From assembly GCA_036002325.1 (NCBI GenBank), contig DASYTJ010000087.1, positions 149,188 to 213,187 on the forward strand: a DNA stretch of 64,000 bases. Reading direction: 5' to 3'. This stretch comes from Thermoanaerobaculia bacterium. GTDB taxonomy: Bacteria > Acidobacteriota > Thermoanaerobaculia > Multivoradales > UBA5704. The translations under genes were made by a program, and so were the position numbers. Below the pieces are notes generated by a model, which ran no database searches, was not told the origin of the DNA, and was given only the letters and a program-made list of their open reading frames with translations. This document shows, piece after piece, positions 6,810 to 56,212 of the stretch (position 1 is its first letter; every line of letters starts with the position of its first letter).

Positions 6810-7400
6810 TTACGTCGACGGCTCCCAGAGCGCGATGTCGATGCATTCTGCTGCGCATTCGCGCGAAAACTCTTCGACCTCGAAGACGTCGATATAGGGG
6901 TCCCGCTGCTCTCGAATCGCGAGGAGGGTGGGTTCGGCTGCGGACAGGAGGCCCGCTTCGCGGAGGAATGTACCCAGTCTCACCGGCTCCGAATTCATCC
7001 AGGGCCACTGCACGACGCACCCCGCGTAGACCGGCCACCTGACGTCGAAATCCTCCCGGTTCTTCAGGCGGGCGAAGGCGTCCTGGCCGAAATCGGGCCG
7101 GCCACCCTCCAGGGCGAGACCGATCCGGGTCCACAGCGCCAGCTCATCGGATGGGTCCTCGCGCAGGCGAAACGCACAGAAATCCCCGAGGCGATTCGAG
7201 TTCACGGTCTGCACCGCGTAGCCCGGCTGCCAGACCCAATGCGAGCGAGGCAGCTCCTCGACGATTTCGATCGCCTCCAGCAAGGCAGCCTTGGTCTTCG
7301 ACAGGAGATCGCTGCCACCGAGCACTCGAGATCGATAACCGGGGAAACCGGCCCCGAAAGTCCTAGCGAAGAACTCTTCGGCCGCGCCGGCCATGATCAA
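6810..7400 (-). CDS. Hypothetical protein
   Basis: 196-aa ORF. Its 5' end overlaps the stop of the upstream DUF1304 gene by 4 bp (7397-7400), consistent with co-transcription downstream of ku. Confidence 0.45.
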   Translation of the reverse strand: MIMAGAAEEFFARTFGAGFPGYRSRVLGGSDLLSKTKAALLEAIEIVEELPRSHWVWQPGYAVQTVNSNRLGDFCAFRLREDPSDELALWTRIGLALEGGRPDFGQDAFARLKNREDFDVRWPVYAGCVVQWPWMNSEPVRLGTFLREAGLLSAAEPTLLAIREQRDPYIDVFEVEEFSRECAAECIDIALWEPST

Positions 7401-38812: not shown

Positions 38813-39489
38813 GCCGCACCCTTCACCGGCAGCCGCCCCCAAGCCGCGAGCAACTCGCGAGTTCGCGGACAGCCGAGGTCGCCATGAATCATCTCCTCGA
38901 CCAGACGGCGCAGGTCTTCCGGGGTGTCCACGTCCGTCGCTATCGGCAGCAGCTCGGTCGCGAGGCCCAGCTCGCGGCAGCGTTCGAGCGTCGCCGGCAG
39001 CACTTGCTCAGTGCTCCAGGCGATCTCCGCGAAAAGGCGCCGGGAGACCGCACCAGCGCGGAGGGCGATCAGGTAATAACCGCCGTCTTCGGCGGGGCCG
39101 AGCACGACGTCGGCGCCGGCTTCCACCTTCTCGAAGGCGAGGTGCACCATCGCCAGCGGCAGGGTGGGATGATCGCTGCCGAGGGCCGCCACGGCGGCGG
39201 CCTCCGCCGCCGCCGCGGAAAGAGCGCGATAGAGGCGCTCGCCGAGGTCCCTTCCCTCCTGGCGGATTCCCGGCGCCGGTTCTGACGGCACCTCCTCCGC
39301 CGGCTCGAGCGCCCAGGCGAGTCGCAGCTCGAAGTCGCCTCCCCGCAGCCGTGCGAGCAGATCCGCGAGGAACGCGGCGTGCAGCTCCGCTGCCTCGGCG
39401 GCGGTAAGATCGCCGATCAAGCGAGTCTTGACCCGCCCCTCCCGGGCAGGTTTGGTGAAGAGCAGCAGGCGGCGGGAAGAGGCGGACAC
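38809..39489 (-). CDS. DUF2064 family (TIGR04282-like, GT-A fold) protein
   Basis: N-terminus MSASSRRLLLFTKPAREGRVKTRL matches the conserved DUF2064 start. Confidence 0.55.
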   Translation of the reverse strand: MSASSRRLLLFTKPAREGRVKTRLIGDLTAAEAAELHAAFLADLLARLRGGDFELRLAWALEPAEEVPSEPAPGIRQEGRDLGERLYRALSAAAAEAAAVAALGSDHPTLPLAMVHLAFEKVEAGADVVLGPAEDGGYYLIALRAGAVSRRLFAEIAWSTEQVLPATLERCRELGLATELLPIATDVDTPEDLRRLVEEMIHGDLGCPRTRELLAAWGRLPVKGAA

Positions 39490-39497
39490 GGGCGGGA

Positions 39498-40277
39498 TTG
39501 TATCTGATGATTCTGACCCTCCTCACCGACTTCGGCACCGAGGACTACTACGTCGCCGCGGTGAAGGGCACCGTCCTGAGGCTCGCGCCGGGAACAGCGC
39601 TGGTCGACGTATCGCACCAGGTGCCGCCCGGCGACATCGAGACCGCCGCCTTCCTGCTCGCCGCGGCGGCGCCCGCCTTCCCGGCCGGAACCGTGCACCT
39701 CGCGATCGTCGATCCGGGCGTGGGCAGCGGCCGGCGCATCCTCGCGGCGCGGACCTCCTCGGCCTGGTTCGTGGCGCCGGACAACGGGCTCCTGACTCCG
39801 GTGCTGAAGGAGGCGGTCTCCATCCGCTCGGTCGAGAAAGGCGACCTCTTCCTGGCCGGCCCGGGCGAGACCTTCCATGGCCGGGACCGCTTCGCCCCGG
39901 TGGCCGCGTGGCTGCTGCGCGGCGAGCCGGAGGCGGAGCTGGGACCGGAGATCGGCGACCCCAGGCAGCTTTCATGGCCGCGGCCGGGCCGGCAGCCGGG
40001 ACGGCTCTCGGGGCGGGTGATCCACGTCGACCGCTACGGCAACCTGGTGACCGACATCCCCGCCGCGTGGCTGCCCTCCGGTCCCTGCCGCGCGGAGGTG
40101 GCGGGACGGGCAGCCCAACGCCGGGCCAGCCACTACGCCGAGATTCCCGCCGGCGAGGCGGCCCTGCTCCCCGGCTCTCTGGGCACCGTCGAGCTGTCGC
40201 TGAACGGCGACGACCTGTCACGCCGGTGGCAAGTCAGCCGGGGAGCCGCCGTCGAAATCCTATGGAACGAATCTTGA
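39498..40277 (+). CDS. SAM hydroxide adenosyltransferase family protein (DUF62; chlorinase/fluorinase superfamily)
   Basis: MILTLLTDFGTEDYYVAAVKG... HVDRYGNLVTD. A conserved N-terminal SAM-binding TDFG motif and a C-terminal barrel. Confidence 0.7.
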   Translation: MYLMILTLLTDFGTEDYYVAAVKGTVLRLAPGTALVDVSHQVPPGDIETAAFLLAAAAPAFPAGTVHLAIVDPGVGSGRRILAARTSSAWFVAPDNGLLTPVLKEAVSIRSVEKGDLFLAGPGETFHGRDRFAPVAAWLLRGEPEAELGPEIGDPRQLSWPRPGRQPGRLSGRVIHVDRYGNLVTDIPAAWLPSGPCRAEVAGRAAQRRASHYAEIPAGEAALLPGSLGTVELSLNGDDLSRRWQVSRGAAVEILWNES

Positions 40278-40403
40278 AGGGAAGTCTGGAGCGCCGTCAT
40301 CGTGTGTGCAAAACGGTGACGGTTGTTTCAGGGTTTCGGCTACAATGGGCGAGAGTCCGAGGCCGCGTGTGCCCGAGTGATCTGTGGGAAGGAGCGTGTG
40401 GCC

Positions 40404-40592
40404 ATGACCAAGTGGGAGTACAAGATCATCAACATTCGCAGCGAAAACTACCGCCTCGATCCGAACGCCGCAACGCAGCTCAACCAACTGGGCGAGGAGG
40501 GCTGGGAGCTCGTTTCGATCACCTCCGTCAATTTCAAGACCGGCGCGACCGACAACATCGCCATGGTCTTCAAGCGGCCCGTCGCCGGCTGA
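40404..40592 (+). CDS. DUF4177-like small protein
   Basis: MTKWEYKIINIRSENYRLDP...LGEEGWELVSI. GGAAGGAG lies upstream. 62 aa. Confidence 0.45.
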   Translation: MTKWEYKIINIRSENYRLDPNAATQLNQLGEEGWELVSITSVNFKTGATDNIAMVFKRPVAG

Positions 40593-40608
40593 CCGCCGAG
40601 CACCGCCT

Positions 40609-40827
40609 CTACCGCTTGAGCTTCTTGCGCCGCCGGCCGCGGCGCAGCGCCAGCGCGAACCCTGCGGCGCCGACCGCCACCGCCATCAACAAGTACTTTC
40701 GTTTCGGAAAAAGGCCCACCTCGGTCTGAACCGCGGTACGTACCTCGGAGAGCCGCTGCTCTGCCGCGCGGCGGCTCTCCTCCAAGCGGCGCTCGGCCTC
40801 GCGACGGGCCTCTTCCAAGCGGCTCAT
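40609..40827 (-). CDS. Small coiled-coil, C-terminally membrane-anchored protein (ElaB/YqjD/DUF883-like)
   Basis: 72 aa with a charged coiled-coil N-terminus and a single C-terminal TM helix (LLMAVAVGAAGFALAL). Typical partner of the holin-like gene immediately upstream. Confidence 0.45.
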   Translation of the reverse strand: MSRLEEARREAERRLEESRRAAEQRLSEVRTAVQTEVGLFPKRKYLLMAVAVGAAGFALALRRGRRRKKLKR

Positions 40828-41279
40828 GGCAGATCCCTCCCCAGCGGTTCCCCGCCCTCAGCGACGGGCTCAACATCCAGCGCCTTGGGCTGCGCCAGCA
40901 GCCCGTGCTGCCACCAGTCGAGATGACTGTCCACCCGCCGCCGCACGGTCTCGACGGGGTTCTCGACCTTGCGCAGCCGGGTGACGCCAAGCCAGGCCAG
41001 CAGACCCGTCGTCAGCAGGAAGAGCAGCAGCACGGCCAGGGAAGCTCCCCACCACGGCAGCCAGATATGGAGCAGCGCGATCAGGACGAACAGCAGGAGG
41101 CCGACGATCCAGAACAGCAGGATCAGGGCGGCGCCCAGCAGCCCCAGCGCCGAACCCAGATAGCGGCCGGAGCGATGAAAATCCTCCTGCAGCGTGGCCA
41201 GCTCCGCCCGCCAGACTTCCAGCAGCGATTCGCCCAGCGCGCGAATCAGTTCGATCCAGCCTGCCATCCCGCCCCCCAT
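40824..41279 (-). CDS. Phage-holin-family (YqjE-like, 3-TM) membrane protein
   Basis: 151 aa with three hydrophobic helices. Overlaps the next gene by 4 bp. Confidence 0.45.
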   Translation of the reverse strand: MGGGMAGWIELIRALGESLLEVWRAELATLQEDFHRSGRYLGSALGLLGAALILLFWIVGLLLFVLIALLHIWLPWWGASLAVLLLFLLTTGLLAWLGVTRLRKVENPVETVRRRVDSHLDWWQHGLLAQPKALDVEPVAEGGEPLGRDLP

Positions 41280-41290
41280 TTCCCCAATGT

Positions 41291-43054
41291 TCAGCGGCCG
41301 ACGCTCAGCCCGCGGCTGACGAAGGAGGCCTGCGCCGCGACGTCGTCACGCACCCCCACCGATACTCGCTGGTCGCCGCCGCGCATCAGCAGGGTCACTG
41401 AGTAGACGAATTGCTTGTCCTTGGCGGCGGCGATCTCGGCCTTGGGAATGCTGATCGGCACTGGCGCCTGCTGCACGTCCGAGGTGCGGCCGCCCGAGTC
41501 TACGGCGGCGACGAACAGGCGTACCTTGGCGTCCTCCGTCTGCTCCCGCGGCACCAGCACCAGCTTGCCGATCGGGATGCGCACCATCACCGGCACCAGA
41601 TAGTAGCCGTCGTCCCGCGGCTTCGGTTGACCGAACTCCAGAGAGACGCCGAGGGGGTTCTCCTCGAACGGGAAGTTCAGGGCAGCCAGCGTGCCGTCGG
41701 TCATCCGGGCATCCGTGCTCTTGTCGCGGTAGCCCTCCCGGTGCCGCACCGCCAGGTCCTTGCGATTCTTCACCTTCACTTCGATCTTGTAATAGCGGCC
41801 GTCGCCGTAGTGATTCGGCGTGTAGCCCAGCGAGTAATAGGTGTTGAAGTCGCGGGCGATGGTCTCGAGCTGCGGCATGACGACGTTGGTGTTGATAATC
41901 GCCTTGCCACCCGTCTTCTCGGCCAGGAGCTGAAGGGTGCTCTGCAGGTTCGAGAAGCGCACCGAATCGATGAGCTGCGAAAGGCCCGGCGCGTTGGTCG
42001 TGCCCCGGTTCTCGGCGGTGACCGACTCGTAGGCGCGCAGGCCCGCGGCGTCGATCGTGTAGAAGGTGACACGGTTGGCGTTCGCCTGGGCCGCCAGCTC
42101 GTTGAGGCGCCGCGAGACGTCGAACTCCAGCGTCTGCGTGAGGCTGGTGCTCTGGTCGCTGTATTTGTTCAGCACGGCGTAGAAGACGTCCTGGCCGGCG
42201 ATCATCTGCAGGCCGTCGCTCACGTACACCACCGCCTTGCGCCCGGGCATGCCGGCCAGGGCGTCGATCATCTTCTTCAAGGCGTCGATGGAGAACTGCA
42301 GGTCATTGTAGGTGGACTGGGCGTAGGTACGAGCGTAGCCTTCGGCCTCGGCGACCGTCTGCGAATCCTCGATCCGCTGCAGCGTGTCGCGGCGCTCCGA
42401 GTCGGCGTGTACGCCCTGGGCAGAGATCGTCTCCAGCTCGTTCATTGCAGCAGCGATGAGGCTCGCATCGCTGGTGAAGGTGCGCCGGATGTGCAGCTCG
42501 CGGTCGTAGGTCACCAGCATGAGCTGATCGTCCTTGCCCAGCTTCTGGCCGATGAAGGCGCGCAGCTCGCGCATCACGCGGTTGCGGTTGAACGGCCGCA
42601 GATTGAAGTTGTCGATGTAGATGACCAGCCGCAGCCGCTGGTCCTCCGGAGTTCGCACCGTCTCGAGCGTCGGTGGCGCGGGCGCCGGCGGCGCTCCGGG
42701 AGCGGCAGGTGCCGGCGCGGCCGCGACTTCCTCGGGAGGAGTCGTGGCCTTGCCGGCGTTGACGGCGTAGAAGTTGGTGATCTCCACCGGCCGGCCGTTC
42801 TCGAAGATCTGGAAGTCTTCCCGGCGCAAGCCGGTGACCGGCTTGCCCTGCTTGTCGGTGACGAAGACGTCGACGTTGACGACGCTGACGTTGACGATAT
42901 CGATGAACGGCTCCTGATCCGTCTGGGCGGCGGCGGGCGCCGCCGGCTTGTCGATCTGACCGGGCTTGCGCATCTGAGCGCCGGCCGCGGTCAGCGAGCC
43001 TGCGGCCGCCAGGAGCAGCCAACCTGCTGTAAGAAAACGCTGCGATGAGCTCAT
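41291..43054 (-). CDS. VWFA-related Acidobacterial domain protein (TIGR03436), paralog 1
   Basis: Signal peptide; conserved FIDIVNVSVVNVDVFVTDKQGKPVTGLRREDFQIFENG N-terminal module, then a VWA-like region (LVIYIDN...AVVYVSDG). Confidence 0.75.
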   Translation of the reverse strand: MSSSQRFLTAGWLLLAAAGSLTAAGAQMRKPGQIDKPAAPAAAQTDQEPFIDIVNVSVVNVDVFVTDKQGKPVTGLRREDFQIFENGRPVEITNFYAVNAGKATTPPEEVAAAPAPAAPGAPPAPAPPTLETVRTPEDQRLRLVIYIDNFNLRPFNRNRVMRELRAFIGQKLGKDDQLMLVTYDRELHIRRTFTSDASLIAAAMNELETISAQGVHADSERRDTLQRIEDSQTVAEAEGYARTYAQSTYNDLQFSIDALKKMIDALAGMPGRKAVVYVSDGLQMIAGQDVFYAVLNKYSDQSTSLTQTLEFDVSRRLNELAAQANANRVTFYTIDAAGLRAYESVTAENRGTTNAPGLSQLIDSVRFSNLQSTLQLLAEKTGGKAIINTNVVMPQLETIARDFNTYYSLGYTPNHYGDGRYYKIEVKVKNRKDLAVRHREGYRDKSTDARMTDGTLAALNFPFEENPLGVSLEFGQPKPRDDGYYLVPVMVRIPIGKLVLVPREQTEDAKVRLFVAAVDSGGRTSDVQQAPVPISIPKAEIAAAKDKQFVYSVTLLMRGGDQRVSVGVRDDVAAQASFVSRGLSVGR

Positions 43055-43106
43055 AGACCTCTTTCCTTCCCGACTCTGTCCGGCGCCGATTATACGGGAC
43101 GAGCGC

Positions 43107-44759
43107 TCACTTGGCCGGCGGTACGACTTCGATCGATCCCGTGAGGATCTTGCCGCTCAAAGGATCGAAGATCGCCAGCGTCAGGCGATGCGGCAGCCGT
43201 CGCAGCTTGAGCCGGGTCTCGTAGCGAATCGATGCTCCTGCCTGCGGCTGGGTGTCGGAGCGCAGCGTCACCGGGATGACCGGCACGGCCGAGCGGCTGC
43301 CGCTGGTAGCCACGGCGGCCACCCGCAGCTCCAGCTCGGCCGCATACTTGCCGTCCAGCGGCACGAAAGTGACCGCGTCCACGGGGATCGCCAGGACGAT
43401 CGGAACCTGCATCTCCCGGCGTCCCGAGGCCACCGGCTGTCCCGCCTGGATGGCCAGCGGCACCGAGTCGGGCGCGCCGCCGAAGAGCATGGCGCTCTCC
43501 ACCATCATCGAGGTCTCGGCCTTGCGCGAGAGGTCGAGGAAATCCTCCCGCGAGCGGACCTTGAATCCCGGCTTCAGCACCTCCACCACCACTTTGTGGC
43601 GTTTGTCGTTGCCCTGCCAGGAAGGCGTGAAGCCGAGCCAGTAGTAGGACCGCGTATCGGAGTCCACCACCTGCAGCAGCTCGCTGCTCTGCGAGTTCAG
43701 CAGCGCCTTGCCGCCGGTCTGGGCGGCGGTGAACTGCAGTGATGCCTGGTGCTCCTGTTCGCGGATGTTGATCCCGCCGGGCAGCGGTCCGGCGAGGGCG
43801 GCGTCGGCCACCGCGGCTTCCACCCCCGGCACGTCCACCGGGTAGATGGTGTAGCCGAGGCGATTGGCCGTGTCCACCAGCGGCCGGAAGATGTCCTCGC
43901 CGCGCGGCACGTCACGGTCGAGAATGGGCCGGTTCGGGTTGTTGACCACATAGTCGGCGGGCGAGAACGGCCAACCGCCGGCCAGCAGCAGCATCACCTT
44001 GCGCCCAGGAGGCGAGGCGAAGCCGCGCAGCGTGCTCGCCGCCGCCGCCACCGCCCGTTCGGTCTGGGCCGACAGCCGGTCCGCGTACTCCAGCTCTTCG
44101 ATGTCGAGCCGCTGCGCGAACGCCGAACGGGGACCCGGCTCGAAGGTCACTCCCGCGACGCGCCGCGAGGCCTCGAAGCTCCGCAGCTCCGCCAGGCGAG
44201 CGACGCCGAATGCACGGCGGCCGATGGCCTGCTCGATCGCCTGTCCGAGCTGCCGCTGGGAGTTCGTCCAGCTCGACAGCATGTCGACCCCGCCGCCGTC
44301 GTAGGCCACGATCGCCATGCGGTCTTCCGGCGCCAGCCGGGAGAGCTGCCCCTTGAGATCGCGCAGCACCTCGTCCCGGCGCGGACCGATCGAGAAGTAG
44401 TCGTCGATGAACACGAGATAGCTGTTGCCGACGGGGCTCCCCGGAGCCAGGCTCGGCAGACCGTGTACCGTCTCCTCCGCCGCGTCCAGGGCGATCGCCT
44501 GGCCGCCCCGCACCTCGTTGAAGTACTCGACGGGAACCGTCTTGCCGTCCACCTTGAGGCGGAAGTCGCCCGGCTTCAGACCCTGCACCCGGTTACCCTG
44601 CTTGTCGGTGACCACCGCCTCGACGTTGACCACCCGCACTTCGATCTGCTCGCCGAAGACGCCCGACGGCTGCTCGGCCGGCGGCTGCTGGGCGAAGCCC
44701 GGCGCCAGCGCCGCGAGCAGCAGCACCGTGATCGGCAAATTCCTAGAGTGGATTTTCAT
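43107..44759 (-). CDS. VWFA-related Acidobacterial domain protein (TIGR03436), paralog 2
   Basis: MKIHSRNLPITVLLLAALAPGFAQQ signal, then IEVRVVNVEAVVTDKQGNRVQGLKPGDFRLKVDG. The ORF-track start at 44801 is probably an over-extension. Confidence 0.75.
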   Translation of the reverse strand: MKIHSRNLPITVLLLAALAPGFAQQPPAEQPSGVFGEQIEVRVVNVEAVVTDKQGNRVQGLKPGDFRLKVDGKTVPVEYFNEVRGGQAIALDAAEETVHGLPSLAPGSPVGNSYLVFIDDYFSIGPRRDEVLRDLKGQLSRLAPEDRMAIVAYDGGGVDMLSSWTNSQRQLGQAIEQAIGRRAFGVARLAELRSFEASRRVAGVTFEPGPRSAFAQRLDIEELEYADRLSAQTERAVAAAASTLRGFASPPGRKVMLLLAGGWPFSPADYVVNNPNRPILDRDVPRGEDIFRPLVDTANRLGYTIYPVDVPGVEAAVADAALAGPLPGGINIREQEHQASLQFTAAQTGGKALLNSQSSELLQVVDSDTRSYYWLGFTPSWQGNDKRHKVVVEVLKPGFKVRSREDFLDLSRKAETSMMVESAMLFGGAPDSVPLAIQAGQPVASGRREMQVPIVLAIPVDAVTFVPLDGKYAAELELRVAAVATSGSRSAVPVIPVTLRSDTQPQAGASIRYETRLKLRRLPHRLTLAIFDPLSGKILTGSIEVVPPAK

Positions 44760-44830
44760 TCCGGATTTTCTCCATTCTGCCTGTCCACAACAACGCAACA
44801 ACCCGCAGCCGTCATTTCTTTCTCAGGCGC

Positions 44831-46351
44831 TCATCGCCCACGCTGCAGCGGCGCGTACTCCGCCTGGCCCCAGATGGAGGTTTCATGGACCGGATCGCGG
44901 ACCGTGAACACCAGCCGCTGCGCGGCGTCGCGCAGCTTGACCACCGTGCGGAAGCGGGCGAAGGTGCCGGCGCGCGGCGAGGCCGCGAGCTCCACCTTCA
45001 GGCGCGCCGTGGGCAGGTCGGCGCGCCCGCCGCGGCCGTCCATCGCCACCACGGCGAGCGGCGCCTCGGCGAGGAAGCCGCTCGCCTGCGGCATCAGGGC
45101 CAGCGACTCGACGGGAACGCCGATCACCACGGGAACCTCGACGCGGCCGCGGCCGGCCCGCCGCGGCTCGCCGAGCTGGACGATCAGCCGCCGGTCGCGC
45201 TCGGCGCCGCCGAAGAGGATCACGCTCTCGGCCTTCATGGCGTTCTCCGTCCGCCGGGAGAGATCGGAAAACCCGGAGCGGGCCCGCACCGTCAGATCCG
45301 GCCGCCGCGGCTCGACCGCGATCCGATGACGGCGGTCGTCGGCCTTCCAGGCGGGGGTGAAGCCGAGCCAGTAATAGGAGCCCGTGTCCGCCACCACCTG
45401 GCGGAAGACCTCCATCTTGGCGGAAACCACGGCCCGGCCGCCGGTCGTGCGAGCGAGGGCGTCGAAGGCCGTGACCTCCCGCGCATCGGATTTCGCGGTA
45501 TCCGCGGGATAGATCGTGTAGCCGAGCCGGTTGGCCGCTTCGATCATAGGCCGGTAAAGCTGCGGTGCGACACCCATCGACCACGCGGCGGAGACGAACA
45601 GCAGGATCTTGCGGCCCGGCGGAACCTCGAAGCCGCGCAACGCTCCGGCAGCCGCGGCCGCGGTCTTGCCGAGCTCGGTGCGGGCCTCCGGGCTGATCCG
45701 CCCCGACGTGTCATTCAAGAACGCCGCGATCTGATCCCCTTCGAAGCTGTCCGCGTTCTCCAGAATCCAGTCCACGTCCTGTTGCAGCTTGCGTTGCTGC
45801 GCCAGTGTCTGGTTACCCCTGGCGGGACGTCTGCGCGCCTGCTCCAGCGCCGCTGCGAGTGCCGCGCGGTCGCGGGTCCAGGCGCTCAGGACGTCGATCC
45901 GCGAGCCGTCGAATGCCAGCACGGCCATCTGATCGGCGTCCGCGAGCAACGTCAGATCGCGCTGCAGCCTCTCCAGCGCCGCGTTCCGCACCGCGGCGAG
46001 CGAAAACGCCTCGTCGATGTAGATCAGATAGCTCCGTCCCACCGCCTCGCCCGCGGTCAGCGGCGGAGCGGCCCCGCCGGTGTCCGCGGTCATCGCCTTG
46101 CCGTCGAGCACCTCGGTGAAATACTCGATGGGCACCTCGCCGCCGTCCACCAACAGGCGAAAATCCTTCGCCGTCAGACCCCGGACGGGTTTGCCCTTGC
46201 CATCCGTGACCATCGCTTCGACGTTCACCACCCGCACGTCGATCGATTCGCCGAAGACCTGTTCCGGCGGCGCCTGCTCCTGAGGGTAGGCCGACGACAG
46301 CGCTCCGGCCAGCAGGAACATGCCGATGAAGGCCCGCGTATGCTTCACCAT
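44831..46351 (-). CDS. VWFA-related Acidobacterial domain protein (TIGR03436), paralog 3
   Basis: MVKHTRAFIGMFLLAGALSSAYPQ signal with a strong GGAGGAGG SD, then IDVRVVNVEAMVTDGKGKPVRGLTAKDFRLLVDG. The ORF-track start is 46408. Confidence 0.75.
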   Translation of the reverse strand: MVKHTRAFIGMFLLAGALSSAYPQEQAPPEQVFGESIDVRVVNVEAMVTDGKGKPVRGLTAKDFRLLVDGGEVPIEYFTEVLDGKAMTADTGGAAPPLTAGEAVGRSYLIYIDEAFSLAAVRNAALERLQRDLTLLADADQMAVLAFDGSRIDVLSAWTRDRAALAAALEQARRRPARGNQTLAQQRKLQQDVDWILENADSFEGDQIAAFLNDTSGRISPEARTELGKTAAAAAGALRGFEVPPGRKILLFVSAAWSMGVAPQLYRPMIEAANRLGYTIYPADTAKSDAREVTAFDALARTTGGRAVVSAKMEVFRQVVADTGSYYWLGFTPAWKADDRRHRIAVEPRRPDLTVRARSGFSDLSRRTENAMKAESVILFGGAERDRRLIVQLGEPRRAGRGRVEVPVVIGVPVESLALMPQASGFLAEAPLAVVAMDGRGGRADLPTARLKVELAASPRAGTFARFRTVVKLRDAAQRLVFTVRDPVHETSIWGQAEYAPLQRGR

Positions 46352-46640
46352 CCGCCTCCTCCTCTCGCACGGGTGATGCTGGTACTTCGACGTGGCAGGT
46401 ATGAGCAAGGAGAGTGCCGGCGGTTTTCACAGGGAAGAGAGGGCCGCTCGTCCTCTCGCGAGGACAGCCGGAGACGATCCGAGGACGCGCCTCGCTACTC
46501 GATCAGCCGCTGGAGGATCGACGGCGGCACCAGTTTGCGCAGTTCCGCGGCTGGAAGAGCGCACCGACGCGCTCGAGCTCTCCCGCGACCAGAGCGAGAG
46601 CGAGGTCGAGCGGCGCGACCTCCGCGGACCCCCTGCGTCG

Positions 46641-46672
46641 TAGTTGCAACTGACAACTATATCTGCTAGACT
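46641..46672 (+). promoter_or_regulatory. Palindromic operator TAGTTGCAACTGACAACTA overlapping a sigma70-like promoter (TTGCAA-N17-TAGACT) for marR
   Basis: AGTTGCAACT is a perfect palindrome. The -10 element ends ~7 nt before the marR ATG (46680), suggesting a leaderless or very short leader. A near-identical site occurs at 47237. Confidence 0.55.
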
Positions 46673-46679
46673 GCCTTCG

Positions 46680-47189
46680 ATGAGCAAGGCGAACCTCCTC
46701 CCGATCGTCACCCAGGACCCCGCCCTGGCGCGGGACACCGAGGAGCTGTACGACGCGCTCGAGGACCTCCTCCGCGTCTACCAGTTCCGCGACCGTGACC
46801 GCATCTGCTGCTTCGACGTCTCGGTCTCGCAGTGCTACGCCCTGGAGGGGCTGGTCCGCCGGGGCAACATGACCTTGAACGATCTGGCGGCCCATCTCTA
46901 TCTCGACAAGAGCACGGCGAGCCGGGTCGTGGACGCGCTGGAGCGGAAGGGCTACGTGGCCCGCACCCCGCATCCCAAGGACCGCCGCGCCGTGCTCCTG
47001 GAGGCGACGACGGCAGGCCGCTCGCTCGAAGGGAAGATCCGGGAGTCGATCCTCGCCGAGGAACGCCAGCTCCTCGCCGACTTCACCCCGGAGGTCCGTC
47101 AGGCCATGACGCAGCTCATCCGCCGCCTCGCCCGCGCCGCCAACACGCAGGTCGGGACCGCGGGCGGAAGCTGCTGCAGCGTTCCGTAA
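46680..47189 (+). CDS. MarR-family transcriptional regulator with vicinal cysteine pairs
   Basis: Winged-helix core (LNDLAAHLYLDKSTASRVVDALERKGYVARTPHPKDRRAVLLEAT). Cys pairs at RICCFD and a C-terminal GGSCCSVP. Confidence 0.7.
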   Translation: MSKANLLPIVTQDPALARDTEELYDALEDLLRVYQFRDRDRICCFDVSVSQCYALEGLVRRGNMTLNDLAAHLYLDKSTASRVVDALERKGYVARTPHPKDRRAVLLEATTAGRSLEGKIRESILAEERQLLADFTPEVRQAMTQLIRRLARAANTQVGTAGGSCCSVP

Positions 47190-47191
47190 CC

Positions 47192-47229
47192 GCCGCGCGC
47201 CGGGATCAGATCCCGGCGCGCTTTTTGTT
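47192..47229 (+). terminator. Rho-independent terminator after marR
   Basis: GCCGCGCGCCGGGA-TCAGA-TCCCGGCGCGC stem-loop followed by TTTTTGTT. Confidence 0.7.
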
Positions 47230-47236
47230 GAACCGA

Positions 47237-47255
47237 TAGTTGCAAGTGACAACCA
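47237..47255 (+). promoter_or_regulatory. Second copy of the operator (TAGTTGCAAGTGACAAC), upstream of arsM
   Basis: 17-bp motif differing at one position from the marR-proximal site. AAAGGA RBS, then the arsM ATG at 47270. Confidence 0.5.
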
Positions 47256-47269
47256 GAAAGGATTGAACG

Positions 47270-48130
47270 ATGAGCACCGAGACTCCATCCCTTCCCTCCA
47301 TCTCGACGGACCAGCCGCTCGATCCCGCCGCGCTCCGCGAGGTGGTCCAGGCCAAGTACGGCGAGGCGGCGCGCAGCGTCCGGAAAGGCGCCACCGCCTC
47401 GTGCGGCTGCGGCTGCGGCTCCAGCCCCGACCCGATCACGTCGGACCTCTACCAGCAGGCCGAGACCGCGGAGCTGCCCGCCGAAGCGGTGCTCGCCTCG
47501 CTCGGCTGCGGCAACCCCACGGCTCTCGCGCAGCTCGCTCCGGGCGAGGTGGTGCTCGACCTCGGCTCCGGCGGCGGCATCGACGTGCTGCTCTCCGCGA
47601 AGCGGGTCGGCCCCACCGGCAAGGCTTATGGCTTGGACATGACGGACGACATGCTCGCGCTGGCGCGCGAGAACCAGCGCCGGGCCGGGGTCGACAACGT
47701 CGAGTTCCTGAAGGGCGAGATCGAGGCGATCCCGCTGCCGGAGAGCGCGGTGGACGTGATCATCTCCAACTGCGTCATCAACCTGTCGGCGGACAAGCGG
47801 CGAGTGCTGGCCGAGGCCTTCCGCGTGCTCAAGCCGGGTGGCCGCTTCGCCGTGTCGGACGTCGTCGTGCGCGGCGAGATGCCCGCGGCTCTCCGCCGCA
47901 ACGTCGAGCTGTGGATCGGCTGCGTCGCCGGCGCGCTGGAAGAGTCGGACTACCGGCGCCTCCTCGCCGAGGTCGGGTTCGAGGCGATCGAGGTCGAGCC
48001 GACGCGCATCTACCGCGCCGAAGACGCCCGCGCCTTCCTGCACGAGGCCGGGATCGAGGCGACCGGGGTCGACGAGGTCGACGGCAAGGTGATGAGCGCC
48101 TTCGTCCGCGCGCGCAAGCCGCGGGCCTAG
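47270..48130 (+). CDS. arsM: Arsenite S-adenosylmethionine methyltransferase
   Basis: Conserved N-terminal Cys cluster (SCGCGCGS), SAM-binding [11 protein letters not shown], and ISNCVINLS with the catalytic Cys. 286 aa. Confidence 0.8.
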
Positions 48131-49080
48131 GCCGACGGCTCGTCTTGCCGTTGCATCCAGAAGCTGGCCCCGCCCCACCACGTCGAGCGTGGGAAGGCGC
48201 GCTGGAAAGCTTCCGCGTGCTGCGCGCCGAGAAATGCGTTGGCGAGCAGCACGCGGAAGCCGGAGTTGAAGATCAGGAAGGCGTGGAGGAGGTACTGCTC
48301 GGTCCAGAAGTGGTGGAGATCCATCACCCACTCGCGTGGAACCTCGCGCGGCAGAAACACGTCGTGGACGTGCACGATGACTCCAGGCGCAAGGCGAGGG
48401 AGAACCTCGAGAAACAGAAAGTTGACGTCGCCGCCGCACCGGACCACGTGGGAAGAGTCGATGAACAGGACGTCGTTCGCCGCCAGCGACTCGAAGACGG
48501 AATAGCCGACGGTCTGCACCTTCTCCGCGATCAGCTCGACGTCGAGGCGACGTAAGAAATCGGGTGGGTACGGCTCGATGCAGGTGATCCGTCCGCCCTG
48601 GTTCGCCGCCACGGCGCGCCGCGCCAGCAGCGTGGAGTGCCCGGAGCCGACCTCGACGATGCGGCGCGGTTTTGCGTGGCGCAACATCGCGTAGAGCACG
48701 AGCGCGTCCGTGCCGCCGAACATCGGATTGTCCAGGTAGAACTCCGTCTCGCTCCGCGGCTTCTCGAAGGGGACATCCTCCAGCTCCGAAGCGTAGCGGC
48801 CGAGCTCCGCGAGCAAAGCCAATTGGGCGTCGACTCGCATATCGATGCCGGCGAGCGCCGACTGGCGGCTCCACAGCTCCGCTCCGAGCTCGCGCGTGTC
48901 GGGAATCGGCTCATAGAAGTGAACCGGCGTGACGTGAAACCCGTGCTCCTGCCAGAGCTCGAAGAGCGCGGGTTTGTCGGCGAGGGGTCGCATCGCCTCC
49001 GCCAGCACCGCGGCCCGTTCGTTGTCCGGCAGCCGCCCCAACGAGGCGAGCAGTCGATTTTTGCGTCGGGGCCACAGCAT
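48127..49080 (-). CDS. Class I SAM-dependent methyltransferase (Methyltransf_24-like)
   Basis: IVEVGSGHSTL motif, 317 aa. Convergent with arsM, with a 4-bp overlap. Confidence 0.55.
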   Translation of the reverse strand: MLWPRRKNRLLASLGRLPDNERAAVLAEAMRPLADKPALFELWQEHGFHVTPVHFYEPIPDTRELGAELWSRQSALAGIDMRVDAQLALLAELGRYASELEDVPFEKPRSETEFYLDNPMFGGTDALVLYAMLRHAKPRRIVEVGSGHSTLLARRAVAANQGGRITCIEPYPPDFLRRLDVELIAEKVQTVGYSVFESLAANDVLFIDSSHVVRCGGDVNFLFLEVLPRLAPGVIVHVHDVFLPREVPREWVMDLHHFWTEQYLLHAFLIFNSGFRVLLANAFLGAQHAEAFQRAFPRSTWWGGASFWMQRQDEPSA

Positions 49081-53797: not shown

Positions 53798-53992
53798 ATG
53801 AAACAGCACCGGCTCCTGCTCCTGATTCTTGCACTGGTCATGCCCATCATTGCGATCGCTCCGCGGTCCACGGTCGCCGCGCCGGCCGACTGCGCCACTC
53901 AATGCCAGCGGGATTATGAGCGCTGCAGCGCCCGCGGCCTCGACTCGATCGCCTGTATGTCGCGATACGAAACCTGCCTGGCGAGTTGCTAG
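53798..53992 (+). CDS. Small secreted Cys-rich peptide (6 Cys; mature ~37 aa)
   Basis: Strong GAGGAGG SD 7 nt upstream. Signal peptide MKQHRLLLLILALVMPIIAIAPRSTVA, then ADCATQCQRDYERCSARGLDSIACMSRYETCLASC (C-x3-C-x6-C...C-x6-C-x3-C). Confidence 0.5.
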   Translation: MKQHRLLLLILALVMPIIAIAPRSTVAAPADCATQCQRDYERCSARGLDSIACMSRYETCLASC

Positions 53993-54209
53993 CGCGGCTC
54001 GCCCGCCGCATGCGCCCGCTCCCATCGGCTCTCCTCATTGTCCTGCAGCTGGCGAGCGGCATGGAGAGCGCAGGCGAATACGGAGATCAGACAGCCTCAG
54101 GCGGGTGCCAGCCTGCCTTCACCCAAGCTCGAGCTTAGGCAATATCCGCAGCGGTTGCGGGCCTGTTCAGCTATGCGCTCGCGAAGCTCTCTGGAAATAT
54201 AGACCGAGC

Positions 54210-54620
54210 TCATCTCCCGGCCAGGATCTTGGACACGTCGTGACCGCGCTCCTTCAGGAGCCGTGCCGCTTCAGCGCGCAACAGCACCGCCTGGTCGTAC
54301 TGATGAACCAACTGCTCCAACGCCTCCTTCTCGGCCGGCGTCAGTCCCTCTCGCTGCTGTTTGAAGTTGAGAGTCTCGAGCTGCGCTCTAGCATCTTCGG
54401 CAAGGGGATTCTGGACGGCGCGCCACAACTCCTCGTCGTTCAGAAGCTGGAGATCCGCGATGGGCTTGGCCACATCATGAACCAACGCCTCCTCCTCAGC
54501 GGCTGTGGCAACTGCTTCCAGGAGCTCCGCCTCCAGACTTCGGTGTGCTTGTTCAGCGCGGTTCTGGAAATGACTGTACAGTTGGGGCGGGAGTCGAAGC
54601 GTTACTGCATGAGCGGACAT
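54210..54620 (-). CDS. Ribbon-helix-helix (CopG/antitoxin-like) protein with a helical C-terminal extension
   Basis: MSAHAVTLRLPPQLYSHFQNRAEQAHRSLEAELLEAVA fits an RHH beta-strand followed by two helices. GGGGAGA SD upstream. No cognate toxin gene is adjacent. Confidence 0.5.
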   Translation of the reverse strand: MSAHAVTLRLPPQLYSHFQNRAEQAHRSLEAELLEAVATAAEEEALVHDVAKPIADLQLLNDEELWRAVQNPLAEDARAQLETLNFKQQREGLTPAEKEALEQLVHQYDQAVLLRAEAARLLKERGHDVSKILAGR

Positions 54621-54673
54621 ACGGTCTCCCCGCATATTGTAATCATGATATCAGGTCCCCGCGGCTATTCCTT

Positions 54674-56212
54674 CTAGCGCGGCTCGCCCGCCGCATGCGC
54701 CCGCTCCCATCGGCTCTCCTCGTCGCGCGGCAGCCGGCGAGCGGCATAGAGGGCGCACGCGAGGGAGAGCACGTTGGCAAGCAAGGCCCAAAGCAGCGCC
54801 GGGCGCAGATCGCCGAGCGCCACGCTCAGACGTCCGACCGTATAGGGTCCCAACGCCAGGCCGATGAAGGTGACGACCAGGAGATAGGCCGCCGAAGCGA
54901 CGGCGCGCATGCGCGGCAGGACGAGCTCCTGCACCGTCGATGCCCCAGGGCCGAGCCACAGCGACGAGACGATCAGCAACGGCACGGAGGCCACGTAGGC
55001 CAGCTTGGGATTCGACGCTCTCAGGAACAGAATCGCGAACGGTATCGCCAACACCGCCGCGAGCATCGTCACCCGCAGACGGCCGGTGGGCGAACGCCGC
55101 AGGAACCGATCGGCGAGAATCCCTCCCAGCGTCACCCCCAACCAGCCGCAGGCGGCGGAGATCCCACCGAGAATGAGACCCGCACGAGCGAGGCTCTCGC
55201 CATGCGCGCGGATCATGTAGGGAGCGATCCAGAAGCCGTAGCTGTAACTGGTGAAGGCGAGCAGCGCGATGGACAGGTTGGCGATATTCAGAGACGGCGT
55301 CCGCAGCACGAGCGCGAAGCAGGCGGGGTCCCGCAGCCGCAGCCCCTGCCCCCAGGAGACCGCGGCGTAGAGGCCGATACCCAACGAGTACCACTGCGCC
55401 GGATTGTCCAGCCAGCGGGTCAGCGCGGCGGCACCCGCGACACAGAGAGCCGCCGTCAGCAGGTTCGCCGACAGCGTTCGCCAGCGGCCGCCGCGCAGCC
55501 ACAGGTTCACCAGCGTGAACGGCGGCAGCACCGCCGCGAGCTCGCGGAAGAACTCCCGCCAAGGACGGGCCTCGGCGGTGGTCGCGACGCCGTCCGCCTG
55601 GCCGCGCACCGGCTCACGCAGCGAGCGGACCCACAGGGAGAGCAGGAGACCGGGCAGGCCCACCACCATGAAGGCCACCTGCCAGCCGTGCAGCCCCAGC
55701 GGCGGCGCCGTCCCGGCCCAGGCGGCGTCCCAGCGGTTGACGATCAGGCCGCCGATACCCAGCCCCAGACCGGCTCCGATATAGATGCCGCTCGAGTAGA
55801 CGCCGAGAGCGGTAGCCCGCCGCCGGGCAGGAAAGTAATCGGAGAGCAGCGAGTAGGCCGCCGGGCTGGCGCTCGCCTCGCCGACGCCGACGCCGAAGCG
55901 CGCCAGCGCGAGCTGCGCGAAACTCCCGGCCATCCCCGAGAGCGCGGTCATGGCGCTCCAGGCGGCGAGACCCCAGGCGATCAGCCGCCGCCGGTCCCAG
56001 ACGTCGGCCAGGCGGCCGAGAGGGATGCCGAAAATGGCGAAGAAGACGGCGAACGCGGTGCCGTAGAGGTAGCCCATCTGGGCATCCGTCACGCCGAGGT
56101 CGGACTTGATGCGCTCGGCGAGGATGGAGAGGATCTGGCGGTCGATGAAGTTGAAGACGTAGACGACGACCAGGACGCCGAGGACGTAGCGGGGGTAGCG
56201 CTCCTCGTTCAT
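54674..56212 (-). CDS. MFS transporter
   Basis: 12-14 predicted TM helices and an MFS motif (GRLADVWDRRRL). Start MNEERYPRY. Its last ~100 bp are duplicated at 53990-54090. Confidence 0.8.
   Translation of the reverse strand: MNEERYPRYVLGVLVVVYVFNFIDRQILSILAERIKSDLGVTDAQMGYLYGTAFAVFFAIFGIPLGRLADVWDRRRLIAWGLAAWSAMTALSGMAGSFAQLALARFGVGVGEASASPAAYSLLSDYFPARRRATALGVYSSGIYIGAGLGLGIGGLIVNRWDAAWAGTAPPLGLHGWQVAFMVVGLPGLLLSLWVRSLREPVRGQADGVATTAEARPWREFFRELAAVLPPFTLVNLWLRGGRWRTLSANLLTAALCVAGAAALTRWLDNPAQWYSLGIGLYAAVSWGQGLRLRDPACFALVLRTPSLNIANLSIALLAFTSYSYGFWIAPYMIRAHGESLARAGLILGGISAACGWLGVTLGGILADRFLRRSPTGRLRVTMLAAVLAIPFAILFLRASNPKLAYVASVPLLIVSSLWLGPGASTVQELVLPRMRAVASAAYLLVVTFIGLALGPYTVGRLSVALGDLRPALLWALLANVLSLACALYAARRLPRDEESRWERAHAAGEPR

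What the first reader, a model, noticed from the sequence alone, without database searches (positions are those of the whole stretch)
53798..54780. Orphan RHH gene flanked by direct repeats derived from the 3' end of the MFS gene, adjacent to a small secreted 6-Cys peptide gene
A 48-bp perfect direct repeat (CTAGCGCGGCTCGCCCGCCGCATGCGCCCGCTCCCATCGGCTCTCCTC) occurs at 53990-54037 and 54676-54723, followed by ~50 bp at ~80% identity. The distal copy is the genuine 3' end of the MFS transporter gene. The proximal copy is a non-coding remnant located right after the stop of the Cys-rich peptide gene. The ~640 bp between them carries only the RHH/antitoxin-like gene. Duplication of a gene's 3' end around an insert is the usual footprint of site-specific integration that reconstitutes the target gene (an attL/attR-like arrangement). 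It can also be the footprint of a decayed larger element. The insert holds an orphan antitoxin-like regulator and no toxin.
Basis: seen in the sequence. Interest (0 to 1): 0.55.

Follow-up and report, generated by a model that had tools for sequence, protein, structure and literature searches.

The report
Recombination scar beside decayed RHH–HNH module
A small two-gene "addiction-type" module (DNA-binding RHH protein plus HNH nuclease) was inserted just after a transporter gene and left a duplicated copy of that gene's end as a scar; the nuclease gene has since been gutted, so this is an ordinary but well-documented example of gene-cassette turnover at a hotspot.

Summary
The direct repeat is real: 89 nt at 53989-54077 and 54674-54762, made of 48 perfect nt plus 41 nt at 78% identity. 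The distal copy is the true 3' end of an intact 512-aa MFS gene. The proximal copy is a dead remnant that abuts the stop of a real, conserved 64-aa Cys-rich peptide gene.

The RHH gene is not an orphan by origin. Overlapping its stop codon (ATGA) lies an HNH nuclease pseudogene: codons 1-28 plus the last ~15 codons, with about 100 catalytic-core codons deleted. Relatives carry the intact RHH + 142-aa HNH pair.

In seven orthologous MFS loci, the position just 3' of the gene holds four different toxin-antitoxin-type modules or their wrecks: RHH-HNH, PIN, ParE and DUF433. One locus has no module called or detected. A second genome (L005) has an independent MFS-end duplication around a PIN module, with different end points.

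I found no integrase, no att-like foreign arm and no terminator. The remnant shares lineage-specific substitutions with the resident gene.

Best reading: a homology-anchored insertion displaced or duplicated the gene end, as in Rhs "C-terminal displacement". The last 48 nt were homogenised later and the nuclease then decayed. This is interesting as an example but not novel in kind.

The parts
54674..56212 (-). Intact MFS transporter gene (512 aa), the conserved anchor gene
   Evidence: Pfam MFS_1 2.7e-38. Identical to P0121, with orthologs at 81-87% identity. Translation verified MNEERYP...AGEPR*. Upstream synteny is conserved in L005, L091, L092 and L093.
54674..54762 (-). Distal repeat copy: the functional last 29 codons plus stop of the MFS gene. 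Positions 54674-54721 form the 48-nt perfect block (EESRWERAHAAGEPR*).
   Evidence: It encodes the ortholog-like C-terminus ACALYAARRLPRDEESRWERAHAAGEPR*.
54621..54673 (-). 53-nt leader between the MFS stop and the RHH start. It holds overlapping palindromes ATCATGAT/TGATATCA (54642-54653), a candidate RHH operator, and a TACAAT -10-like hexamer.
   Evidence: Sequence read. Homology to the L002 cassette leader starts at GGACCTG, 18 nt after the MFS stop. Operator function is inferred, not tested.
54210..54620 (-). RHH gene (136 aa). N-terminal Arc/FitA-like ribbon-helix-helix plus a ~90-aa helical C-terminal part. Sits in the antitoxin position of an RHH-HNH pair.
   Evidence: Sub-threshold Pfam Arc (8e-4) and FitA-like_RHH (1e-3) hits. 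292 homologs of ~137 aa in Acidobacteriota/Thermoanaerobaculia. Followed by HNH in L002.
54087..54213 (-). HNH nuclease pseudogene. Its ATG overlaps the RHH stop (ATGA). Codons 1-28 lie at 54130-54213; in the +1 frame the last ~15 codons plus TGA lie at 54087-54134. About 302 nt, including the whole H-N-H catalytic core, are deleted.
   Evidence: Translations. tblastn with the L002 HNH gives 8e-9 and 6e-4. A 109-sequence HNH family profile hits positions 1-29 (E 2e-12) and about 128-141 (E 2.7e-6) in two frames. The intact 142-aa partner in L002 has Pfam HNH 1.2e-10.
54078..54086 (.). 9-nt spacer (ATACGGAGA) between the HNH stop and the remnant; the right-hand junction of the insertion
   Evidence: It has no homology to either side.
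53989..54077 (-). Proximal repeat copy: a displaced, non-functional remnant of the MFS 3' end. Positions 53989-54036 are identical to the gene; 54037-54077 have decayed.
   Evidence: It reads ACALHAARQLQDNEESRWERAHAAGEPR*. Five amino-acid changes fall at residues conserved in orthologs. It shows no terminator and no unusual fold.
53798..53992 (+). Neighbouring gene for a 64-aa secreted-looking peptide with 6 Cys. It is convergent, and its TAG overlaps the CTA of the remnant. It is not part of the inserted module.
   Evidence: ORF, no Pfam hit. One true homolog, P0241 (73%, 64 aa, same ...CLASC* end), sits beside the same 360-aa neighbour but not beside an MFS gene.

Best explanation
The segment is a recombination scar at a hotspot for small toxin-antitoxin-type modules, immediately 3' of a conserved MFS transporter gene in a clade of Thermoanaerobaculia (Acidobacteriota).

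Proposed history:
1. A ~1-kb promoter-bearing two-gene module (RHH protein + 142-aa HNH nuclease) entered between the MFS gene and the convergent Cys-peptide gene.
2. Entry was by recombination anchored on homology to the end of the MFS gene, not by a dedicated site-specific recombinase. Either a small circular intermediate carrying the last ~89 nt of MFS plus the module integrated by a single crossover, or there was one-sided homologous plus illegitimate joining (HFIR).
3. Either route leaves an intact MFS 3' end in front of the module and a second, now useless copy of the last 89 nt behind it.
4. The 41 nt of the remnant farthest from the stop then drifted. The terminal 48 nt stayed or became identical, through gene conversion or through repeated crossovers confined to that block.
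5. A ~302-nt internal deletion with frameshift later removed the HNH catalytic core.
6. This left the RHH gene, with its palindromic leader, as a surviving orphan regulator/antitoxin.

Shown: the anatomy, the pseudogene, the site polymorphism, the second independent duplication, the absence of recombinase genes, and the substitution polarity.
Inferred: the recombination route, the homogenisation, the toxin/antitoxin roles, and any present function of the orphan.
For: 1. RHH-HNH is a genuine two-gene unit.
- In L002 the RHH homolog (75% identity) is followed, with the same ATGA overlap, by a 142-aa HNH gene.
- 27 of the top 120 RHH hits share their longest-contig length with one of the top 120 HNH hits.
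- The window keeps HNH profile positions 1-29 and about 128-141 in different frames.

2. The site is a cassette hotspot. Of 7 orthologous MFS loci with DNA (81-88% identical):
- the window has RHH-HNH;
- L005 and L092 have a 120-aa protein + PIN module, collinear at 86%;
- L094 has a decayed PIN-module antitoxin;
- L006 (with L007/L008, same MFS protein) has Unstab_antitox + ParE;
- L093 has a lone DUF433;
- L091 has nothing.
- None of these module families occurs in 82 more distant loci covering 626 kb.

3. A second, independent duplication exists.
- L005 has a 97-nt repeat (-69..+28 relative to the MFS stop, 88% identical, spacing 983) around its PIN module.
- It is followed by a 30-nt fragment identical to an internal piece of the L002 HNH gene.
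- None of about 70 distant family loci with enough downstream sequence has such a duplication.

4. The remnant belongs to this lineage.
- Of the 9 differences, 6 are derived in the remnant and 3 in the gene.
- Both copies share 3 derived states absent from 5-6 of 6 orthologs, one of them inside the diverged block.

5. The divergence is non-uniform.
- All 9 mismatches fall in 41 of 89 nt (P = 5.5e-4).
- Zero mismatches in 48 nt at the neighbouring rate has P between 7e-6 and 5e-4.
- This implies later homogenisation or restricted crossover.

6. No integrase or transposase is nearby, and there is no terminator or stable structure.

7. There is mechanistic precedent.
- HFIR-type displacement leaving orphan immunity genes in Vibrio T6SS clusters (PMC5361080).
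Against: - No recombination breakpoint is visible in the MFS gene. Its distance to orthologs is star-like, so the test lacked power.
- I could not obtain an exact empty site (MFS converging directly on the Cys-peptide gene). The only Cys-peptide homolog lies next to a different gene, without DNA available.
- The sharp switch from 48 perfect nt to 78% identity, and the very tight bracketing of the module (18 nt and 9 nt), are also what a site-specific core would give.
- Gene conversion is inferred, not observed.
- Only two genomes show the duplication and the L005 history is not fully resolvable.
- The toxin/antitoxin activity of this RHH-HNH family has not been tested anywhere I could find.
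Confidence: 0.6

Rival explanations
1. attL/attR of a small site-specific integrative cassette. A circular RHH-HNH element carries an attP that mimics the MFS 3' end, and a recombinase supplied in trans integrates it. The 48-nt block is the core and the 41-nt diverged segment is the element-borne arm.
For: - The boundary between the perfect 48 nt and the 78% segment is sharp.
- The repeat ends exactly at the MFS stop, so the gene is reconstituted.
- The repeats bracket the module tightly.
- The same gene end is used in two genomes.
Against: - No recombinase gene lies within +-5 kb or among the tested neighbouring ORFs.
- The L005 repeat has 12 mismatches spread over its length, including the 'core', and has different end points.
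- L092, L006 and L093 occupy the site without repeats.
- RHH modules in L002 and L003 have no MFS-like tail and no flanking duplication.
- The supposed element arm shares a lineage-specific derived base with the host gene.
- The repeat has no hairpin or attC-like structure.
Confidence: 0.15
2. Purely local rearrangement. RHH-HNH was ancestral downstream of MFS. The remnant is a templated patch or tandem-duplication product copied from ~0.7-1 kb upstream during repair of a break, followed by deletions. No incoming DNA was involved.
For: - The remnant carries this lineage's own derived bases.
- L005 shows a patchwork of short fragments at its junction: MFS end + 28-nt leader + 30-nt HNH piece + hairpin. 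This is typical of repeated illegitimate repair.
- An HNH trace in L005 suggests RHH-HNH is old at this locus.
Against: - A simple tandem duplication of the 685-bp unit would leave a second RHH-HNH copy after the remnant. Instead the remnant abuts the Cys-peptide stop exactly, so an extra precise deletion is required.
- It does not explain why different modules occupy the site in relatives.
Confidence: 0.17
3. The proximal copy is maintained because it functions, for example as a bidirectional terminator, an RNA-stability element for the Cys-peptide or RHH transcripts, or a protein-binding site. Selection would then explain the 48-nt identity.
For: - Zero changes in 48 nt next to 22% divergence.
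- A 10-bp hairpin can form between the last 10 nt of the Cys-peptide ORF and nt 6-15 of the remnant (first fold).
Against: - No terminator-like site lies at the remnant.
- Folding energies are not better than shuffles (z -1.3 to +0.5).
- The L005 remnant has decayed throughout.
- Orthologs such as L092, L094 and L006 vary freely in these 48 nt.
- The hairpin covers only 10 of the 48 nt.
Confidence: 0.05

Closest known systems
C-terminal (3'-end) displacement at Rhs/CDI loci, and sequential displacement of T6SS effector-immunity modules (Jackson et al. 2009, PMC2935791; Kirchberger et al. 2017, PMC5361080)
   Same: - A conserved anchor gene keeps an intact 3' end next to a newly arrived module.
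- The old 3' end is pushed downstream and retains homology to the anchor.
- Different strains carry different modules at the same anchor.
- Protective partner genes (immunity / antitoxin) outlive their toxins.
- The proposed routes are homologous recombination with circular intermediates, or HFIR. No dedicated recombinase is needed.
   Different: - Here the anchor is a housekeeping-type MFS transporter, not a polymorphic toxin.
- The displaced 89 nt has no alternative function and is only a scar.
- The cargo is a separate two-gene TA-type operon, not a new gene tip.
- Only one displaced end per locus is seen, not a long array.
Integrative elements that target the 3' end of a gene and carry a replacement end (attL/attR)
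   Same: - Direct repeats of a gene's 3' end bracket the inserted DNA.
- The gene stays intact.
- There is a perfect identity block followed by a diverged segment.
   Different: - No integrase is present.
- The insert is only ~0.7 kb (about 1 kb before the HNH deletion).
- There is no shared core between the two independent cases.
- The diverged arm derives from the host lineage.
Minimal mobile elements of Neisseria (alternative cassettes between conserved genes, exchanged by transformation and homologous recombination; term as used in PMC3082526 and PMC1797815; concept recalled from my own knowledge of Saunders & Snyder)
   Same: - Alternative small gene cassettes without mobility genes occupy one chromosomal position beside a conserved gene in related genomes.
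   Different: - Only the upstream flank (MFS and the genes before it) is conserved here. Downstream synteny differs between genomes.
- The duplication of the anchor end is not a feature of those elements.
Type II toxin-antitoxin modules with RHH antitoxins (Arc/CopG/FitA-like), and orphan antitoxins
   Same: - Two small translationally coupled genes (ATGA overlap).
- The upstream gene has an N-terminal RHH-like segment.
- A palindrome lies in the leader.
- They occur among other TA modules (L003; MFS hotspot).
- The nuclease partner has decayed while the RHH gene stays intact.
   Different: - The nuclease is a 142-aa HNH protein closest to the Septu PtuB-type HNH (PADLOC 7.5e-14), not a classical type II toxin fold.
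- The RHH protein has an unassigned ~90-aa C-terminal part, no Pfam hit above threshold and no PDB relative.
- Toxicity and neutralisation are untested.

Membership tests
Type II toxin-antitoxin module (RHH antitoxin + nuclease toxin) | Two small adjacent, co-oriented, translationally coupled genes | tested here: met
   An ATGA overlap joins RHH and HNH in L002, and joins RHH and the HNH pseudogene in the window.
Type II toxin-antitoxin module (RHH antitoxin + nuclease toxin) | Antitoxin with a recognised DNA-binding domain (RHH) | tested here: inconclusive
   Arc (19.6 bits against a cut-off of 20.4) and FitA-like_RHH (19.3 against 27) are both below Pfam thresholds. There is no PDB relative.
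Type II toxin-antitoxin module (RHH antitoxin + nuclease toxin) | Intact toxin gene | tested here: not met
   In the window, HNH profile positions ~30-127, including the catalytic core, are deleted and the frame is shifted. The gene is intact in L002.
Type II toxin-antitoxin module (RHH antitoxin + nuclease toxin) | Toxin is growth-inhibitory, is neutralised by the antitoxin, and the operon is autoregulated | not testable with these tools
   Needs expression and EMSA experiments. Only the palindromes at 54642-54653 are seen.
Site-specific integrative element (attL/attR) | Integrase/recombinase encoded in or next to the element | tested here: not met
   No such Pfam family appears among the called genes within +-5 kb or among ten long ORFs at 39-49 kb and 62-64 kb. 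Several of those ORFs had no Pfam hit at all, so a divergent enzyme cannot be strictly excluded.
Site-specific integrative element (attL/attR) | Identical core sequence at both junctions, shared by independent insertions | tested here: inconclusive
   The window has a 48-nt perfect block. L005 has a longest perfect run of 27 nt and 6 mismatches within the corresponding 48 nt, with different end points.
Site-specific integrative element (attL/attR) | Element-borne arm of foreign origin | tested here: not met
   The diverged 41-nt arm shares a derived base with the resident gene that all 6 orthologs lack, and it keeps ancestral states at 3 sites.
Site-specific integrative element (attL/attR) | Unoccupied site in relatives | tested here: inconclusive
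   L091 has MFS followed by 214 nt and the next gene, with no module. However, its downstream gene differs from the window's, so it is not an exact empty site.
3'-end displacement by homology-anchored recombination (Rhs/T6SS-type) | Conserved anchor gene is intact, with a displaced homologous 3' fragment downstream of the new module | tested here: met
3'-end displacement by homology-anchored recombination (Rhs/T6SS-type) | Different modules at the same anchor in related genomes | tested here: met
   Four module types plus one locus without any, across 7 orthologous loci.
3'-end displacement by homology-anchored recombination (Rhs/T6SS-type) | Donor-derived segment or breakpoint in the anchor gene | tested here: inconclusive
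   The sliding-window identity shows no change of nearest relative, but all orthologs are about equally distant.
Integron cassette array | IntI integrase, attI, and structured attC sites flanking the cassettes | tested here: not met
   No integrase was found. The repeat folds no better than shuffles.

The most novel reading that the evidence does not exclude
The end of this MFS gene could be a dedicated capture site. Small promoter-bearing toxin-antitoxin cassettes, each travelling with a short 'portable homology arm' copied from the gene's end, would be excised as ~1-kb circles and re-inserted next to the gene. The newest cassette would lie closest to the gene and older ones would be pushed outwards. 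That would be an integron-like array built either without a dedicated recombinase or by an unrecognised one. The HNH nuclease might itself create the breaks that make the site recombinogenic.
Probability: 0.1. Interest if true: 0.7.

Novelty: new member of a known kind. Interest (0 to 1): 0.3.

Why it matters
It gives a clean, dated-by-sequence example of how tiny addiction-type modules without mobility genes turn over at a fixed chromosomal spot in Acidobacteriota, a group that is uncultured and rich in TA modules. It shows three things:
- Duplicated gene ends around such modules need not mean site-specific integration.
- "Orphan antitoxins" should be checked for gutted partner genes before being called orphans.
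- A large, apparently uncharacterised RHH + 142-aa HNH (PtuB-like) gene pair exists: at least 292 RHH and at least 1,999 HNH proteins. It is a candidate toxin-antitoxin or defence module worth testing.

None of this overturns current understanding.

Tried and rejected
- Genome-contig scan with the MFS protein returned only two distant loci.
- The metagenome scan with an ortholog alignment saturated on members at 42-69% identity and missed the close orthologs. I used it only as a background set.
- P0082, the sister-MAG RHH, could not be located on a contig. It turned out to be just a shorter gene call of the same protein, so there is no within-species polymorphism information.
- The P0124 and P0241 contexts came without DNA.
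- The sliding-window search for a recombination breakpoint in MFS was uninformative.
- A tblastn extension of the remnant homology upstream of -89 (MFS residues 10-31) was rejected as an alignment artefact. DNA identity there is about 48% and the same DNA matches the HNH C-terminus in another frame with a better score.
- The 'LNRP' match at HNH profile positions 118-125 was likewise treated as chance, because it overlaps DNA firmly assigned to the HNH N-terminus.
- Terminator or structured-RNA function of the repeat was rejected.
- Simple tandem duplication was rejected because no second module copy follows the remnant.
- The integron model was rejected (no integrase, no attC-like fold).
- My interim note of '49 + 40 nt' was wrong by one. 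The correct figures are 48 + 41.
Full report

Yes, with small corrections.
- The repeat finder reports one 89-nt direct repeat at 53989-54077 and 54674-54762, spacing 685 and 90% identity.
- A base-by-base check gives 80/89 identical. The first 48 nt are perfect (53989-54036 / 54674-54721), followed by 41 nt with 9 mismatches, 78%.
The '~50 bp at ~80%' is really 41 nt at 78%.
- A 32-nt piece of the repeat, allowing up to 3 mismatches, occurs only at these two places, and never in 100 shuffles.
- The window equals part of JGI metagenome contig Ga0376049_0000077, 144,840 bp.

**2. Anatomy, on the minus strand (the sense strand of the main genes)**

- MFS gene, 54674-56212: 512 aa, intact, Pfam MFS_1 2.7e-38. 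The distal repeat copy is its last 29 codons plus the stop. The 48-nt perfect block is exactly EESRWERAHAAGEPR plus TAG.
- A 53-nt leader follows. It contains two overlapping 8-nt palindromes (ATCATGAT and TGATATCA, 54642-54653).
- RHH gene, 54210-54620: 136 aa. Arc and FitA-like RHH hits fall just below Pfam thresholds, and no solved relative exists.
  - In L002, a 294-kb Acidobacteriota contig, the RHH homolog (75% identity) is followed in the same ATGA arrangement by a 142-aa protein, MTSAYISKKLRELVAEQAGYRCGYCLSS...SWVEAGWHPPND. It has Pfam HNH 1.2e-10 and HNH_5 6.2e-10.
  - The window keeps codons 1-28. In the +1 frame it keeps ARAWVKAGWHPPEAV*.
  - A profile built from 109 family members matches positions 1-29 (E 2e-12) and about 128-141 (E 2.7e-6) in two different frames.
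  - So about 302 nt, including the whole catalytic H-N-H core, have been deleted with a frameshift.
- The HNH stop (54087-54089) is separated by only 9 nt from the proximal repeat copy (53989-54077).
- In the MFS frame the proximal copy still reads ACALHAARQLQDNEESRWERAHAAGEPR*.
- Its CTA overlaps the TAG of the convergent 64-aa Cys-rich peptide gene (53798-53992).

**3. The RHH-HNH pair is a widespread unit**

- The RHH family has 292 hits of ~137 aa, mainly in Acidobacteriota/Thermoanaerobaculia MAGs.
- The HNH family has at least 1,999 hits, nearly all exactly 142 aa.
- 27 of the top 120 RHH hits share their longest-contig length with a top-120 HNH hit. This includes seven contigs longer than 12 kb, where coincidence is implausible.
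- The HNH protein is most similar to Septu PtuB-type HNH nucleases in PADLOC (7.5e-14) and to the Cas9 HNH domain among solved structures (6e-6).
- I found no paper describing this pair as a toxin-antitoxin system. The TA assignment is therefore inferred from gene organisation and neighbourhood.
- True orphans exist elsewhere. The L003 RHH is followed by DinB genes with no HNH trace.

**4. Comparative picture of the site**

Orthologous MFS genes are 81-88% identical at the DNA level. They were recovered with their context from six other genomes.

| Locus | What lies directly 3' of MFS | MFS-end repeat |
|---|---|---|
| Window (L004) | RHH + HNH pseudogene | yes, -89..0 |
| L005 | 120-aa protein + PIN | yes, -69..+28 |
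| L092 | same PIN module, collinear with L005 at 86% | no |
| L094 | decayed piece of the PIN-module antitoxin (tblastn 9e-6) | no |
| L006 (L007/L008: same MFS protein, other contigs) | Unstab_antitox + ParE | no |
| L093 | lone 55-aa DUF433 gene | no |
| L091 | nothing for 214 nt, then the next gene | no |

- In L092 a 20-nt deletion has removed the MFS stop.
- Upstream synteny is conserved in the window, L005, L091, L092 and L093. Downstream gene order differs between genomes.
- None of these module families appears in 626 kb around 82 more distant loci.
- The position directly 3' of this MFS gene is therefore a clade-specific hotspot for small TA-type modules, which are seen in all stages of decay.

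**5. A second duplication**

- L005 carries a 97-nt direct repeat (88% identity, spacing 983) around its PIN module. It comprises the last 69 nt of MFS, including the stop, plus 28 nt of the PIN-module leader.
- Its end points differ from the window's (-69..+28 against -89..0). Its 12 mismatches are spread over the repeat, with 6 of them inside the stretch that is perfect in the window.
- Directly after the L005 remnant comes a 30-nt string identical to an internal part of the L002 HNH gene (RISARDPESG). That string is found nowhere else in 94 loci. An RHH-HNH module therefore once sat at this locus in that lineage too.
- None of about 70 distant family loci with enough downstream sequence has a duplicated MFS end.
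- RHH modules at other sites (L002 after uvrB, L003 after a MazE-like gene) are not flanked by duplicated gene ends and carry no MFS-like tail.

**6. What the substitutions say**

- The 9 differences between the window copies all lie in the 41 nt farthest from the stop (hypergeometric P = 5.5e-4). At that local rate, 48 unchanged nt have P between 7e-6 and 5e-4.
- Polarised against six orthologs:
  - 6 differences are derived in the remnant. Together the nine differences change five amino acids at ortholog-conserved residues (Y>H, R>Q, P>Q, R>D, D>N), which means neutral decay.
  - 3 differences are derived in the functional copy.
- Both copies share three derived bases that 5-6 of the 6 orthologs lack. 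One of them lies inside the diverged block.
- Hence:
  - (a) The remnant descends from this lineage's own MFS end, not from a foreign attP arm.
  - (b) The two copies have been separate long enough for both to change.
  - (c) The terminal 48 nt were homogenised later, or are the only place where exchanges occur.
- Gene conversion between direct repeats 685 bp apart is the simplest cause. It becomes self-limiting once the neighbouring block has diverged. This step is inferred.

**7. Alternatives tested**

- Terminator or structured element: no terminator-like site lies at the remnant. Folding is no better than shuffles on either strand (z -1.3 to +0.5). Only a local 10-bp hairpin forms with the end of the Cys-peptide ORF.
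- Site-specific integration: no integrase, transposase or other recombinase family is found among genes within +-5 kb or among ten long ORFs further out. There is no common core between the two independent duplications, and the arm is of host-lineage origin.
- Simple tandem duplication: this would leave a second module copy, which is absent.
- Donor-derived 3' segment in MFS (the HFIR prediction): no breakpoint is visible, but the orthologs are equidistant, so the test has little power.

**8. Most likely mechanism**

- The module entered by recombination anchored on the conserved end of the MFS gene. There are two possible routes:
  - a single crossover with a ~1-kb circular intermediate carrying [last ~89 nt of MFS + module];
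  - one homologous and one illegitimate junction.
- Both routes yield the observed order: intact gene end, module, displaced gene end, old downstream DNA.
- This is the mechanism proposed for displaced Rhs tips (homologous recombination with circular intermediates; PMC2935791). It is also proposed for orphan immunity genes in Vibrio T6SS clusters (PMC5361080).
- The L005 structure fits the same scheme. Its homologous segment included 28 nt of leader, which implies re-acquisition of a PIN module by a genome that had deleted most of its earlier modules.
- After insertion the HNH gene lost its core, and the RHH gene remained full length.
- Whether the orphan is still useful is untested. Possible roles are as a regulator, or as protection against related incoming modules in analogy to orphan immunity genes.

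**9. The Cys-rich peptide**

- It is a real gene. One homolog cluster matches at 73% identity, with the same length and the same C-terminus. In a 2.1-kb contig that homolog lies next to the same 360-aa neighbour.
- There it converges on a Pyr_redox_3 gene rather than an MFS gene.
- It shows no link to the RHH family. Its adjacency to the remnant reflects the pre-insertion gene order, not a functional association.

**10. Verdict**

- The claims 'only an orphan RHH' and 'attL/attR' are not correct.
- The locus is a recombination scar at a TA-module hotspot, holding a decayed RHH-HNH pair. It is a new instance of a known kind of process.
- Confidence in the anatomy and the pseudogene is about 0.95. 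Confidence in a homology-anchored, recombinase-independent origin is about 0.5-0.6.
- Interest is modest (0.3). It would be higher only if a dedicated capture mechanism were shown.

Noticed in passing
L091:6588-6698 and L091:8570-8681: A 112-nt sequence is repeated at 93% identity. One copy lies in the intergenic gap just after the MFS gene at the module-free site and the other lies 2 kb away. It may be a small dispersed (MITE-like) element.
   Followed up: no
L092:6180-6210: A 20-nt deletion relative to L005 removes the MFS stop codon. The MFS ORF then runs into the PIN-module leader and ends ...EPVL* instead of ...EPR*, with the antitoxin ATG only 10 nt later.
   Followed up: partly
L005:7537-7620: The junction is a patchwork: MFS-end remnant + 28-nt PIN leader, then a 30-nt HNH internal fragment, then a GC-rich hairpin with a T-run. 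The 9-mer CCGGATCTC at the start of the HNH fragment also occurs at the start of the L005 PIN gene (6941-6949), a possible microhomology used in a deletion.
   Followed up: partly
window 53980-54003 (+): A 10-bp hairpin (GGCGAGUUGC-UAGC-GCGGCUCGCC) can form between the last 10 nt of the Cys-peptide ORF and nt 6-15 of the remnant copy. There is no T-run, and the distal copy cannot form it.
   Followed up: partly
L002:5001-5839 and family-wide: The RHH (~137 aa) + HNH (142 aa, PtuB-like) gene pair is abundant in Acidobacteriota metagenomes (at least 292 and at least 1,999 proteins). The RHH partner has no Pfam family above threshold, no PADLOC hit and no PDB relative. The pair looks like an undescribed TA or defence module.
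   Followed up: partly
window 39428-48874: Seven long ORFs (261-594 aa) on both strands in this stretch gave no Pfam hit at E<=1e-4. Some overlap each other and may be wrong-frame ORFs of a GC-rich region. The real gene content there was not resolved.
   Followed up: no
L003:3907-5414: The orphan RHH homolog in L003 sits in a run of TA-type genes (HigB-like toxin, HTH_3 antitoxin, MazE-like), followed by two tandem DinB_2 paralogs that share a 133-nt repeat at 74%.
   Followed up: no
contig of P0241 (JGI 3300056388, no DNA held): The Cys-peptide gene and its 360-aa neighbour are conserved as a pair in another lineage. There they lie next to a Pyr_redox_3 gene. In that genome the hydrolase-MFS-module block is either absent or located elsewhere.
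   Followed up: partly
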